A DNA stretch of 64,000 nt from positions 61,910 through 125,909 of the forward strand of contig JBHLON010000004.1 of assembly GCA_048940445.1 (NCBI GenBank), written 5' to 3'. Within the stretch, counting starts at the first letter, position 1, and each line of letters opens with the position of its first letter. The translations under genes were made by a program, and so were the position numbers. This document shows, piece after piece, positions 15,262 to 18,425 of this stretch. The DNA is from Promethearchaeota archaeon (GTDB lineage: Archaea > Asgardarchaeota > Lokiarchaeia > Sigyniarchaeales > SOKP01). A model generated the notes under the pieces. It made no database searches, had not been told where the DNA came from, and was given only the letters and a program-made list of their open reading frames with translations.

Positions 15262-17403
15262 ATGAAGTATTTTAATTTAAAGAAAAACATAAAATTAGTA
15301 GGTATAATTTTAATTCTATTAATTCCCATTTCATTTAGGTTTAGAAACAATTATACTGATAAAAATATAATTTATCCAAACTTAAACCTTTTAAACTCAT
15401 CCAATAACGTACCTAATATAGATCTCTCTAAATTGCCTGGAATTGATTATGAATCTTGGTATAAACCTAAGATTGAAATGTTGGTTATTACTCCCCCTAA
15501 TGAAGACTTTATCAACGCAGTCTCTCCATTAGTGGAATGGAAGAATAGTAAAGGTCTAAAAACCATAATATTAAGTAATTATTCTGAATATCCTGGAAGA
15601 GATGATGCAGAACGAATCAGAAATATGATAAAATATTACTATGAACATGAAAATGTTAAATGGGTTCTTCTAGCAGGTGATGCGAAGAATAATTTAATTC
15701 CCATAAGATATGTCTATAACCCCGATGTAATTGTAGTTGGAGGTGGAGAAAGTGAATACTTAAACTGGGATGATTACTATAAACCTACTGACTTCTATTA
15801 TGCTGATTTAACTGGGTCATGGGATGATGATAACGATAATAATTTTGGAGAATCTGCAAAGTACAATCAGAATGGAATAGATGAAATTAGTTGGACTCCA
15901 GAAGTCTATGTGGGGCGTTTTCCTGCAAATACCGCTACTGAACTCGCAATAATGGTTAATAAGAGTTTAGAATATGAATCCAATCCGTATATTGGAAATT
16001 GGATGAATTCCATGCTATTAGCGGGTGGAATATCTGAGTACACTCCAGATGAAGATGAGGCGAGGCTAACCGAATATATTTGGACAAATTATGTATTATC
16101 TGAAATGAATTTTACAAATCTATATAAGACTACTTCAAGTTTTACACCAACCACTCCCCCATATCCTAATAATCAAACAGAATTAAACACTTCCAATTTT
16201 GATGCTTTATTTGACAAGGGTTATTCTACAGTCATGTTTGCAGGGCATGGAGATCCGACGAAATTTACCAGTTTACCCTCTTATTTTATAGTATATAGTA
16301 ATAATGATGCTACATCAAGCGAAAATATAGGTAAACCTTCATTGGTTTATGCTGATGCATGTACAACCTCTTCTTATGATAAAAATGATAATAGTATAGG
16401 AGAGGTTTTAATAAAAAGAGAAGATGGGGGAGCAATCGGTTATATAGGAGGTCTTAGAGTCACTTGGTATGTGAATAATGATACTAATTTAGAATATCTA
16501 AATCGTGGTAATGCAAAACTATTTTGGAAGACATTCTTTAATGAGAAATATTTTCAACAAGGAAAAGCACTATATGAATCTAAATTAGCGTATATGAATT
16601 CAGATATATTTGTAAATGGTTCTTCGTCTATGTATTTTGAATGGCATCGAAAAAATATATTAAGTTACTGTTTATTAGGAGATCCGGAATTAGATGTTTA
16701 TACAAATAGACCAAAAGAAGCGAGTAACATATTTAATTCATCTTATAGTGAAGGCCATTATATCTCATTAATTGTAAAAGATGTGAATAATAAGTCAGTA
16801 CCATATGCAAGCGTAAATTTAAGAACTCTTGATGGCAAATATAGAACATTCTATGCAGATAAATATGGATTGGTAAATATTAGATTGCCTCCTCAAGCAA
16901 ATGAGGTTTATAATATAACAATCACAGGTCATAATCTTATCCCTACTTCCTTCACCTTTTCAACACATCCAGATAATTCTATACCAGAAATCCGTCACAT
17001 TGATTGGCTTCCAAAATCACCGTCTCTTTTAGATAATATTTGCTTTAATATAACAACTTATGATAATAGTTCTGGAGTTGAAAGTGTTTTTTTACTGTTA
17101 TCTAAAAATAACTTTGAGGATTATACATATTATAAAATTGATAACGATAATATCCAAGATATCATAAATTTTGAATATGAACTTAATAAACTTGATCCCG
17201 GGGAATATCGTTTTGCGATTGTAGCAAGAAATTATGCAAATAATTCTGAAATTTTATATCGTGAAAATTTTCAATTTACCATCCCGAAACCTTTAATGGA
17301 TTACGTACTTATAATAACACTTTTATTAATAATTAGTCTTGTTGGAGTTTCATTTTTTGTGATATTTAAAGGAAACCAAAAGCAGAAAGAAACATTAAGA
17401 TAG
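15262..17403 (+). CDS. C25 (gingipain-like) cysteine peptidase, membrane anchored
   Basis: LLAGD, TDFYYADL, VGRFP, catalytic AGHG and ADAC, LLGDP; signal segment and C-terminal TM. Confidence 0.88.
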   Translation: MKYFNLKKNIKLVGIILILLIPISFRFRNNYTDKNIIYPNLNLLNSSNNVPNIDLSKLPGIDYESWYKPKIEMLVITPPNEDFINAVSPLVEWKNSKGLKTIILSNYSEYPGRDDAERIRNMIKYYYEHENVKWVLLAGDAKNNLIPIRYVYNPDVIVVGGGESEYLNWDDYYKPTDFYYADLTGSWDDDNDNNFGESAKYNQNGIDEISWTPEVYVGRFPANTATELAIMVNKSLEYESNPYIGNWMNSMLLAGGISEYTPDEDEARLTEYIWTNYVLSEMNFTNLYKTTSSFTPTTPPYPNNQTELNTSNFDALFDKGYSTVMFAGHGDPTKFTSLPSYFIVYSNNDATSSENIGKPSLVYADACTTSSYDKNDNSIGEVLIKREDGGAIGYIGGLRVTWYVNNDTNLEYLNRGNAKLFWKTFFNEKYFQQGKALYESKLAYMNSDIFVNGSSSMYFEWHRKNILSYCLLGDPELDVYTNRPKEASNIFNSSYSEGHYISLIVKDVNNKSVPYASVNLRTLDGKYRTFYADKYGLVNIRLPPQANEVYNITITGHNLIPTSFTFSTHPDNSIPEIRHIDWLPKSPSLLDNICFNITTYDNSSGVESVFLLLSKNNFEDYTYYKIDNDNIQDIINFEYELNKLDPGEYRFAIVARNYANNSEILYRENFQFTIPKPLMDYVLIITLLLIISLVGVSFFVIFKGNQKQKETLR

Positions 17404-17621
17404 TTCCCATAGATGTATTGCCCAATTCTACTGGAAAATACTATGCTTTCAACTTTAACTTTTAAATTTAATGGTTTATAATGAAAAAATTTAATTAGTA
17501 GCTTTTATTAAATGTATTAACTTAAAACCATATAAGCAAGGTATTTTGAGAAAAAATAGCCAAGCTTATAAAATGGTCTTAAAGGATTTTTTAACCACAA
17601 AAATCCTATACATTTCGTAAT

Positions 17622-17754
17622 GCGCTGGAAGTTAAACTGTTTTGCGTTGAAATTAGTACTGCAATTGAGATTTGTGGGAACTTTCTAACTGTGGCTTAGG
17701 CTACGGTCATGGTAAAACAGGAAAATACCTGGTCCCATCTGAACCCAGAAGCGC
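17622..17754 (+). other. Bulge-helix-bulge-like RNA processing motif formed between the 5S flanks
   Basis: GCG(17622-24)/CGC(17752-54) outer helix; CUGG(17625-28)/CCAG(17745-48) 4-bp central helix; AAG bulges at 17629-31 and 17749-51. Confidence 0.75.
17631..17750 (+). rRNA. rrf: 5S rRNA, circularly permuted gene (3' half 17631-17695, UUAG linker, 5' half 17700-17750)
   Basis: 5S signatures ACCUGGUCCCAUCUGAACCCAGAA, GUUAA, AGUAC and GGGAA; helices I, II and III all pair across the two halves; total 120 nt. Confidence 0.85.
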
Positions 17755-17882
17755 TAAAATTTTTGTGGTTAAAAGACTATTTCATAATATCTCTACTTCT
17801 AATCAAGGGAAGAATAATTTTTTTAAATGTTCTTTAATAAAATATTATATTATCGAATTATTCTTTTACTGAAAGGTGTGTT

Positions 17883-18425
17883 ATGCCGAAAAATTTAACA
17901 GTAATTTTAAAATCAATTGGAAGGAAATGGTTTTTCATTCTAGTTATCATTATCATTATAGTTGCTGTATTCGATCTTCAATTAGGTATCTGGATAACAG
18001 TAATTACATTGATCTTATATGGACTTTCATATATTCCGAATTTGTTATTTAGTAATAAACTTAAAAGATTTCTTAAGAACCAGAACACTATAGATGATAA
18101 GATGATTTCAAGACAATTAAAAAGGAAGTATGAAGAAATACAGAAAAGGTTGTTTAAATTATCCCAAAATCAAAAAAAGGAAAGTTGGTTAATAGTATTT
18201 CTAAACAAGCAATACATATTTTACAATGGAAAAATAATTGAGACATTTAAAGAACTTTATGAAAAAGGATTTGGAGAAAAAGAGATTTTAGAGGAACTTC
18301 AAAAAATTAACGTTAATACTCGTGCGGAAATTAAAGCGATAGAAGAAACTCTCATTAAAAATGATAGATTAAACGAGAGAATTGTTTCAGTTAAAGAATT
18401 TAGAGATAAAAAGAAATTTGGTTGA
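17883..18425 (+). CDS. Hypothetical membrane protein
   Basis: Two N-terminal TM segments and a basic cytoplasmic domain; GGTG SD-like element upstream. Confidence 0.7.
   Translation: MPKNLTVILKSIGRKWFFILVIIIIIVAVFDLQLGIWITVITLILYGLSYIPNLLFSNKLKRFLKNQNTIDDKMISRQLKRKYEEIQKRLFKLSQNQKKESWLIVFLNKQYIFYNGKIIETFKELYEKGFGEKEILEELQKINVNTRAEIKAIEETLIKNDRLNERIVSVKEFRDKKKFG

What the first reader, a model, noticed from the sequence alone, without database searches (positions are those of the whole stretch)
17622..17754. BHB-like splice motif predicts a 120-nt circular 5S rRNA with an exactly restored junction
Seen in sequence: the 5' flank GCG-CUGG-AAG and the 3' end CCAG-AAG-CGC form a 3-bp outer helix, a 4-bp central helix (CUGG/CCAG) and two 3-nt AAG bulges on opposite strands. 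Established knowledge: the archaeal tRNA-splicing endonuclease cuts after the second nucleotide of each bulge and RtcB ligates the ends. Applied here, the cuts fall at 17630/17631 and 17750/17751. Joining 17750 to 17631 gives ...GAACCCAGAA|GUUAAAC..., the conserved 5S sequence with no base gained or lost. The inner side is imperfect (U17632 faces C17744, or a 2-nt bulge with GUU/AAC pairing), so the motif is a relaxed BHB/BHL. Inference: 5S maturation here depends on the splicing machinery, and the mature rRNA may remain covalently closed because helix I is capped by a tetraloop.
Basis: partly seen in the sequence, partly recalled or inferred. Interest (0 to 1): 0.93.

Follow-up and report, generated by a model that had tools for sequence, protein, structure and literature searches.

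The report
Back-to-front 5S rRNA gene, ring-forming
This Loki-type Asgard archaeon writes its only 5S ribosomal RNA gene back half first, between tRNA-splicing cut signals, so a normal 5S can form only if the transcript is cut and its ends rejoined, most likely into a closed 120-base ring.

Summary
Window 17631-17750 is a circularly permuted 5S rRNA gene: 3' part, UUAG tetraloop capping helix I, then 5' part. It is flanked by GCG-CUGG-AAG / CCAG-AAG-CGC inside a 15-bp processing stem, behind its own TATA-like promoter.

It is the genome's only 5S-like locus. Rotated, it aligns end to end with the canonical 5S of the sister family.

Of 112 related loci, 105 carry a strict bulge-helix-bulge motif (BHB) whose standard cuts restore the 5S sequence exactly. 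The junction sits at five different places in different lineages, each with its own BHB. The flank helices covary. The retained third base of the 5' bulge is invariant and the discarded third base of the 3' bulge varies.

In 151 Asgard genomes, 43 match the permuted model and 49 have a canonical 5S. No family scored for both.

The genome encodes two EndA paralogs and RtcB. Cleavage, ligation and a circular mature form are inferred; I found no RNA evidence myself.

I found no published description. This scan has noted the same layout on other DNA (145 notes, at least 99 genomes); some of those notes claim rejoined forms in environmental RNA, which I could not check.

The parts
17565..17576 (+). 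TATA-like promoter element CTTATAAAATGG, about 14-25 nt upstream of the processing stem
   Evidence: The same element (CTTATA[AT]AATGG) sits at the same distance from the AACCAC stem in relatives. Its function as a promoter is inferred.
17590..17604 (+). 5' strand of the 15-bp processing stem (UUUAACCACAAAAAU)
   Evidence: Pairs with 17759-17773 in both the MFE and the BHB-constrained fold. The AACCAC/GUGGUU core covaries across 32 relatives, e.g. CG to UA in 5.
17609..17619 (+). Small leader hairpin (UAC-AUUUC-GUA), weak here
   Evidence: Predicted. Relatives have a stronger hairpin at the same place (GUAGCAAUUCGCUAC).
17622..17624 (+). BHB outer helix, 5' strand (GCG)
   Evidence: Pairs with CGC 17752-17754. 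Covaries: outermost pair GC 13 / AU 12 / UA 1; innermost GC 25 / AU 4 / UA 1.
17625..17628 (+). BHB central 4-bp helix, 5' strand (CUGG), a leader copy of the helix III 5' strand
   Evidence: 100% paired with 17745-17748 in 32 of 32 relatives, with a CG to UA swap (21 vs 11).
17629..17631 (+). 5' bulge AAG; predicted cut between 17630 and 17631
   Evidence: AAG in 68 of 68 loci with this junction type. The third base G is kept in the product and is invariant.
17631..17750 (+). Permuted 5S rRNA body, 120 nt, predicted to be excised and closed into a ring
   Evidence: Rfam 5S matches only the 5' part, 19.7 bits. The rotated sequence folds as a three-way 5S and aligns over full length with canonical sister-family 5S at 58-62% identity. 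Permuted-core model R1 scores 109.4 bits.
17631..17695 (+). 3' part of 5S: GUUAAAC, helix II 3' strand, helices V/IV with the AGUAC...GGGAA loop E motif, helix I 3' strand
   Evidence: Alignment to canonical 5S; conserved columns.
17696..17699 (+). UUAG tetraloop joining the native 3' and 5' ends of helix I
   Evidence: Exactly 4 nt in all 112 Loki-type loci (UUCG, UUAG, UUUG, UACG and others). The closing pairs covary: CG 19 / AU 8 / GC 5.
17700..17750 (+). 5' part of 5S: helix I 5' strand, helix II 5' strand, loop B, helix III, loop C
   Evidence: Rfam 5S model positions 1 to about 50 align here with high posterior probability.
17745..17748 (+). BHB central helix, 3' strand (CCAG), which is also the helix III 3' strand in the mature fold
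   Evidence: The two pairings are mutually exclusive.
17749..17751 (+). 3' bulge AAG; predicted cut between 17750 and 17751
   Evidence: The first two bases AA are kept and invariant. The third is discarded and varies: G 4, A 32, U 32.
17752..17754 (+). BHB outer helix, 3' strand (CGC)
17759..17773 (+). 3' strand of the processing stem (AUUUUUGUGGUUAAA)

Best explanation
The locus is the organism's single, functional 5S rRNA gene in circularly permuted order. It is transcribed from its own promoter as a precursor of about 180 nt. A 15-bp stem brings leader and trailer together, and the leader's CUGG pairs with the CCAG that later forms helix III, giving a relaxed bulge-helix-bulge motif. The splicing endonuclease (two EndA paralogs, likely an alpha-beta heterotetramer) cuts after the second base of each bulge. 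RtcB then joins G17631 to A17750 and restores the conserved ...CCCAGAAGUUAAAC... segment. Helix III can then form, and the product is a covalently closed 120-nt 5S whose helix I is capped by a tetraloop. The ring is most likely the form built into the ribosome. Shown here: gene order, motif, conservation, covariation, distribution and enzyme genes. Inferred: cleavage, ligation, and that the ring is the mature form.
For: 1. This is the only 5S-like locus in a 93%-complete genome. Closed genomes of the same family also have only this locus (G102, G104; CP070831.1).
2. The rotated sequence is colinear with canonical 5S and folds as 5S, also when folded as a circle.
3. A strict BHB that restores the sequence exactly is present in 105 of 112 loci, against a background of 0.0015 per position pair.
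4. Five junction positions were seen, each with its own BHB: GGAA|ACACCC in loop B; GGUC|CCAUCC in loop C; GAA|GUUAAAC (this locus); AAG|UUAAGC; GGA|AGUUAAGC.
5. The BHB helices and the processing stem covary. The named structure is 90.1% paired, against 32-43% when the partners are slid.
6. Retained bulge bases are invariant and the discarded base is variable.
7. The same genes in relatives carry 30-nt BHB introns in loop C and helix IV whose removal restores the intron-less sequence.
8. In one 151-genome Asgard sample, permuted-model hits (43) and canonical 5S hits (49) fall in different families.
9. EndA x2 and RtcB are present.
10. The helix I cap is always 4 nt in the 112 Loki-type loci, which fits a retained structural loop rather than a spacer to be removed.
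Against: There is no RNA evidence from my own searches. The metagenome scan for the ligated junction returned only unrelated canonical 5S genes, and a search for a ring-spanning ORF product found nothing. The inner BHB helix is missing. The BHB conformer of this single sequence is predicted to be 6.1 kcal/mol less stable than the MFE. One distant lineage (L166) caps helix I with about 10 nt rather than 4. Nothing excludes re-opening of the ring. An earlier check in this scan priced the 'ring is the ribosomal 5S' reading at 35/100.
Confidence: 0.6

Rival explanations
1. The ring is only an intermediate. After EndA/RtcB processing it is re-opened in or near the helix I tetraloop (17696-17699), giving a linear 5S with near-canonical ends, as happens with circular pre-16S/23S rRNA and permuted tRNAs.
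For: Circular pre-16S/23S intermediates are re-linearised in the studied archaea (PMC10515664; PMC12918454). Permuted tRNAs are opened by RNase P and tRNase Z (my knowledge). L166 has a longer cap of about 10 nt.
Against: The cap is exactly 4 nt in all 112 Loki-type loci, mostly UUCG-like stable tetraloops, with covarying closing pairs and no spacer or conserved cleavage motif. Circular 23S within ribosomes is now reported (PMC12918454), and the permuted SRP RNA of Thermoproteus is reported to be restored by circularization (PMC4731332; title and abstract seen).
Confidence: 0.15
2. EndA cuts but the ends are not ligated. The mature 5S is a linear permuted molecule with a nick between helix III and helix II, held together by base pairing and proteins.
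For: Exact retention of every base is also expected for a nicked form. No ligation evidence was obtained here.
Against: RtcB is present and joins the 2',3'-cyclic phosphate and 5'-OH ends left by EndA (established knowledge). The junction lies in different conserved elements in different lineages (loop B, loop C, the helix III end), which is hard to tolerate as a permanent nick. Earlier notes of this scan claim rejoined forms in environmental RNA for close relatives (not checked by me).
Confidence: 0.08
3. The BHB is incidental. The permuted transcript is trimmed by other nucleases, and the flank pairing merely reflects the leader mimicking helix III or a remnant of a tandem duplication.
For: The leader CUGG resembles the helix III 5' strand. 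BHB-like arrangements are common by chance in AT-rich DNA (834 candidates in 559,650 position pairs). The MFE fold does not choose the BHB.
Against: Five junction positions each have their own 4-bp helix and 3-nt bulges placed so that the standard cuts restore 5S. Outer-helix covariation is unrelated to any 5S element. The discarded base varies while retained bases do not. Bona fide BHB introns occur in the same genes.
Confidence: 0.05
4. The locus is a relic or pseudogene, and the true canonical 5S is missing from the assembly.
For: The genome is a 139-contig draft, 93% complete, and rRNA genes are often unassembled.
Against: There is one copy per genome in 113 of 126 family genomes, including closed ones, with no canonical 5S over cut-off. 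The two exceptions look bacterial, i.e. contamination. All 5S signature positions are conserved and the helices covary.
Confidence: 0.02

Closest known systems
Circularly permuted SRP RNA gene of Thermoproteus (Plagens et al. 2015, eLife, PMC4731332; title and abstract seen)
   Same: An essential structured RNA encoded with its 3' part before its 5' part, undetectable by standard models, and restored by circularization (the paper's title and abstract). That the cut sites are BHB-type and the ring is the working form is my recollection of the paper, not read here.
   Different: A different RNA (5S rRNA, a ribosome component) and a different phylum. Here the junction position has moved at least five times, extra BHB introns occur, and no RNA data were obtained by me.
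Circularly permuted tRNA genes (Cyanidioschyzon merolae; Thermofilum; PMC3978253, PMC3218864)
   Same: 3' half upstream of 5' half, a BHB at the termini, and a circular intermediate made by the splicing endonuclease and ligase.
   Different: Permuted tRNAs have a spacer between the native ends that RNase P and tRNase Z remove to give a linear tRNA. Here the native ends are joined by a fixed tetraloop with nothing obvious to remove.
Circular pre-16S/23S rRNA intermediates, circular or permuted 23S in ribosomes (PMC10515664, PMC7758197, PMC12918454)
   Same: A BHB within a long processing stem formed by leader and trailer, cut by EndA and closed by RtcB. Circular 23S in mature ribosomes is now reported.
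   Different: Those genes are colinear, so circularisation is not needed to create the RNA's sequence order. PMC12918454 states that this route applies to 16S and 23S 'but not 5S rRNAs'.
Permuted mitochondrial 5S rRNAs (Valach et al. 2014, PMC4267664) and low-level circular 5S reads in Sulfolobus and Halobacterium (Danan et al. 2012, PMC3326292)
   Same: 5S permutation exists in organelles. End-joined 5S reads have been seen in archaea.
   Different: The organellar cases have no BHB or EndA route (my reading of the title and abstract only). The Sulfolobus circles come from a colinear gene, were minor and failed RT-PCR validation.

Membership tests
5S rRNA (Rfam RF00001) | Reaches the family's gathering score (38 bits) as encoded | tested here: not met
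   19.7 bits. Only model positions 1 to about 50 are truly aligned. This is expected for a permuted gene.
5S rRNA (Rfam RF00001) | Full-length colinearity with bona fide 5S once the two parts are put in native order | tested here: met
   The rotated sequence aligns end to end with four canonical sister-family 5S genes at 58-62% identity. The only extra is the 4-nt cap.
5S rRNA (Rfam RF00001) | Three-way junction with helices I-V and conserved loop C and loop E motifs, supported by covariation | tested here: met
   Folds. Helix I and II covariation. Invariant AGUAC, GGGAA and ACGGUCAU.
5S rRNA (Rfam RF00001) | Rotated sequence scores above the Rfam threshold | not testable with these tools
Substrate of the archaeal splicing endonuclease (BHB motif) | 4-bp central helix flanked by two 3-nt bulges on opposite strands | tested here: met
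   CUGG/CCAG with AAG and AAG. 100% paired in 32 relatives. Present in 105 of 112 loci.
Substrate of the archaeal splicing endonuclease (BHB motif) | Outer helix (h) | tested here: met
   3 bp here (GCG/CGC), 3-10 bp in the 112 Loki-type loci and up to 16 bp in other lineages, covarying. Backed by the 15-bp processing stem.
Substrate of the archaeal splicing endonuclease (BHB motif) | Inner helix (h') | tested here: not met
   0 contiguous pairs after the 5' bulge in this junction type, so this is a relaxed hBH-loop motif. Such motifs are cut only by broad-specificity (alpha-beta)2 or epsilon2 enzymes (abstract of PMC5829648).
Substrate of the archaeal splicing endonuclease (BHB motif) | Enzymes encoded: EndA and RtcB | tested here: met
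   Two EndA paralogs of about 200 aa (104 and 72 bits), 36% identical over 81 residues; the second lacks the His that aligns with the first's (E-H-S vs E-A-A). The alpha/beta reading is inferred. RtcB 560 bits.
Substrate of the archaeal splicing endonuclease (BHB motif) | Actual cleavage at the bulges and ligation of the ends | not testable with these tools
   My one metagenome scan for the junction gave only unrelated canonical 5S genes.
Circularly permuted ncRNA genes (tRNA, SRP RNA) | 3' part upstream of 5' part in one transcription unit, with native ends adjacent | tested here: met
   One intergenic unit between ORFs ending at 17403 and starting at 17883.
Circularly permuted ncRNA genes (tRNA, SRP RNA) | No colinear copy in the genome | tested here: met
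   and closed relatives.

The most novel reading that the evidence does not exclude
The 5S rRNA inside the ribosomes of this organism, and of a large share of Asgard archaea, is a covalently closed circle made by the tRNA-splicing machinery. This would be the first natural circular 5S rRNA.
Probability: 0.5. Interest if true: 0.92.

Novelty: new variant of a known kind. Interest (0 to 1): 0.86.

Why it matters
5S rRNA is a universal ribosome part whose gene has been taken to be colinear in all cellular genomes. If this reading holds:

- In the archaeal group closest to eukaryotes, ribosome assembly would depend on the tRNA-splicing enzymes.
- 5S rRNA, and an rRNA gene, would join the short list of permuted RNA genes.
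- It would give a concrete reason why gene finders report no 5S in many Asgard genomes (Wu et al. [quoted passage not shown] That omission also counts against these genomes under quality standards that ask for a 5S gene.
- It predicts a ring-shaped 5S that can be tested directly by RNA-seq, RNase R treatment or cryo-EM.
- The moving junctions and added introns make it a natural experiment on how BHB sites migrate.

Tried and rejected
- Rfam at gathering threshold on the whole window: no match. ARAGORN: no tRNA.
- Metagenome scan for the ligated junction (GGTMCCATCYGAACCCRGAAGTTAAAC): 7 hits, all colinear 5S genes on contigs of 41-52% G+C with G+C-rich 5S sequences unlike this one. No ring junction was found. 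The scan may also leave out records very near this genome.
- Search for a gene product spanning the ring junction (the 39-codon ring ORF, padded to 40): no candidates. This is uninformative, because such short ORFs are rarely called.
- Single-sequence MFE of the precursor: it does not form the BHB. It pairs GGAAGUU with AACUUUC instead and is 6.1 kcal/mol better. By inspection of the alignment, that alternative is broken in the CCGG-type relatives (AACUUGC), so I rejected it.
- Pseudogene or missing-canonical-copy idea: rejected on closed genomes and conservation.
- Canonical 5S hits in G072 and G014 of this family: they look bacterial and are taken as contamination.
- Type-B and other-lineage BHBs were tabulated by script only. 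I did not run a separate covariation count for them.

Full report
WHAT IS THERE

The finding lies in a 480-nt intergenic region between an ORF ending at 17403 and one starting at 17883. The window has about 30% G+C.

Read directly, 17631-17750 contains every 5S rRNA landmark, but in swapped order:
- 17631-17695: GUUAAAC, the helix II 3' strand, helices V/IV with AGUAC...GGGAA, and the helix I 3' strand.
- 17696-17699: a UUAG tetraloop.
- 17700-17750: the helix I 5' strand, ACGGUCAUGG, helix II, loop B, helix III and loop C, ending ...GAACCCAGAA.

Rfam finds nothing at its gathering score. At a relaxed threshold it aligns only model positions 1 to about 50, to 17705-17751 (19.7 bits). This is the only 5S-like match in the whole 93%-complete genome.

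Put in native order, the 120 nt fold into the 5S three-way junction, also when folded as a circle. They align end to end with canonical 5S genes of the sister family at 58-62% identity. The only extra is the 4-nt cap.

THE MOTIF

The flanks read GCG-CUGG-AAG (17622-17631) and CCAG-AAG-CGC (17745-17754). This is the strand order of a tRNA-intron bulge-helix-bulge. Cuts after the second bulge base fall at 17630/31 and 17750/51, and joining the ends restores ...CCCAGAAGUUAAAC....

Outside the motif, a 15-bp stem (17590-17604 with 17759-17773) clamps leader and trailer. A conserved CTTATAAAATGG element lies 14-25 nt upstream of it (17565-17576). The unit therefore looks like a stand-alone gene.

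The leader CUGG and the helix III 5' strand compete for the same CCAG, so the cleavage fold and the mature fold are mutually exclusive. For this single sequence the BHB fold is predicted to be 6.1 kcal/mol less stable than the MFE. By inspection of the alignment, the MFE's alternative pairing is broken in the CCGG-type relatives.

COMPARATIVE EVIDENCE

A DNA search found the locus in 21 of 24 genomes of the genus. A strict pattern scan of one genome per GTDB species found 76 contigs. Most are labelled Promethearchaeota or Promethearchaeia, i.e. Loki-type Asgard archaea, including CR_4, Loki_b31/b32 and a closed chromosome, CP070831.1; a dozen are labelled only 'uncultured archaeon', and a few carry other labels (see below).

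I scanned 112 loci by script for a 4-bp helix, 3-nt bulges and an outer helix of at least 3 bp. In 105 of them, such a motif restores the 5S sequence exactly. The background rate is 0.0015 per position pair. Of the seven others, six have the central helix and bulges but a mismatch in the outer helix, and one lies at a contig end.

The junction is not always in the same place:
- GAA|GUUAAAC, as here: 68 loci.
- GGUC|CCAUCC in loop C: 35 loci, including members of this genus.
- GGAA|ACACCC in loop B: the CR_4 lineage.
- AAG|UUAAGC and GGA|AGUUAAGC: other orders and classes.

Each position has its own leader and trailer helices, placed so that the standard cuts give an intact 5S. I regard this as the strongest single argument that the splicing endonuclease processes these transcripts.

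On a 32-sequence alignment:
- The central helix is 100% paired, with a CG to UA swap (21 vs 11).
- The outer helix covaries (GC 13 / AU 12).
- The AACCAC/GUGGUU stem covaries.
- The whole named structure is 90.1% paired, against 32-43% when the partners are slid.

In the 68 loci of this junction type, the 5' bulge is always AAG; its G is kept in the product. The 3' bulge is AAG 4, AAA 32, AAU 32; its third base is discarded. This fixes the cut register.

Several lineages add 30-nt insertions in loop C or at two sites in helix IV. These are themselves BHB introns, and removing them gives the intron-less sequence.

DISTRIBUTION

With Rfam 5S, family f1 has no canonical 5S over cut-off in 81 genomes. 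The two exceptions look bacterial. Sister family f2 has canonical genes, often in tandem.

A covariance model of the permuted core (R1) hits 113 of 126 f1 genomes. All but two have a single hit (one of the two is a locus split between contig ends). Scores are 80-118 bits. The hits include closed genomes.

In one 151-genome sample of the phylum, R1 hits 43 genomes in ten families. These include a 1.4-Mb closed genome whose size suggests an Odin-type genome (inferred). Rfam 5S hits 49 genomes in other families. No family scores for both. 59 genomes match neither, so more divergent forms may exist.

ENZYMES

The genome has two EndA paralogs of about 200 aa and one RtcB. In the alignment, the second paralog lacks the His present in the first. 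This fits a catalytic-plus-structural heterotetramer, the type reported to cut relaxed motifs (abstract of PMC5829648). This reading is inferred.

MECHANISM AND CONFIDENCE

I consider it nearly certain (about 0.97) that this is the functional, permuted 5S gene. I consider it likely (about 0.8) that EndA and RtcB excise and close it.

That the ring itself is the ribosomal form rests on three points. The cap was exactly 4 nt in all 112 Loki-type loci. The closing pairs covary. No spacer or cleavage signal is visible. I put the full chain at about 0.6.

The rivals are re-linearisation at the cap, a nicked unligated form, incidental flank pairing, and a relic. They are listed with their tests.

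WHAT I COULD NOT SHOW

My single metagenome scan for the ligated junction returned only unrelated canonical 5S genes. A protein-database search for a ring-spanning ORF found nothing.

LITERATURE

Five full-text searches found no permuted or BHB-processed archaeal 5S.
- PMC12918454 states that circularisation concerns 16S and 23S 'but not 5S'.
- Danan et al. saw minor, unvalidated 5S circles from colinear genes.
- Wu et al. could not predict 5S genes in closed Heimdall genomes.
- The closest precedents are the permuted SRP RNA of Thermoproteus and permuted tRNA genes.

EARLIER NOTES OF THIS SCAN

The same layout has been noted on other DNA: 145 notes in at least 99 genomes. Some follow-ups on close relatives state that environmental RNA contains the rejoined 120- or 121-nt form. 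I could not test that claim and give it no weight in my scores.

Noticed in passing
window 17524-17577: An imperfect palindrome, AACCATATAAGC ... GCTTATAAAATGGT, surrounds the putative promoter, giving TATA-like boxes in both orientations. It is conserved in relatives. It could be a regulator site or a bidirectional promoter.
   Followed up: partly
L015, L017, L020, L058, L077, L110 (loop C); L006, L007, L045, L049 (helix IV): Relatives carry 30-nt BHB introns inside the permuted 5S gene, at one loop C site and two helix IV sites, with different intron sequences in different lineages. Splicing restores the intron-less sequence.
   Followed up: yes
L029 (G032, three copies about 375 nt apart); L027 (G051): The sister family's canonical 5S genes stand in tandem arrays. 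Tandem duplication is the simplest route between colinear and permuted gene orders in either direction, so these arrays may record such an event.
   Followed up: no
L167 (G163, closed 2.8-Mb genome): The leader holds two copies of CGUGAGAG about 30 nt apart. The copy next to the long outer helix would give a ring about 30 nt too long, so a second BHB-type excision may be needed there.
   Followed up: no
L153, L154 (family f4): Permuted 5S with the central helix and bulges but no adjacent outer helix, and UAA instead of AAG at the restored junction. This is a more relaxed motif.
   Followed up: partly
L102 (DATKTW010000142.1); L058, L061, L066, L069, L107, L118, L121: A contig labelled Nanopelagicaceae bacterium carries a permuted 5S whose junction region and BHB are identical to one of this genus (likely mis-binned). 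Several MAGs labelled Hod-, Hermod-, Thor- or Odinarchaeota carry Loki-family-type sequences, so their labels are doubtful.
   Followed up: partly
L025 (G072), L037 (G014): Bacterial-looking canonical 5S genes in two MAGs of this family, probably contaminating contigs.
   Followed up: partly
L004 and L024 (G019): In one relative the assembly breaks inside the 5S locus, so that its two parts lie at the ends of two contigs.
   Followed up: no
phylum sample, families f10 (0 of 13), f19, f20, f22, f25: These Asgard families, which include closed genomes, match neither the canonical Rfam 5S model nor my Loki-built permuted model. Their 5S may be permuted in a more divergent way.
   Followed up: no
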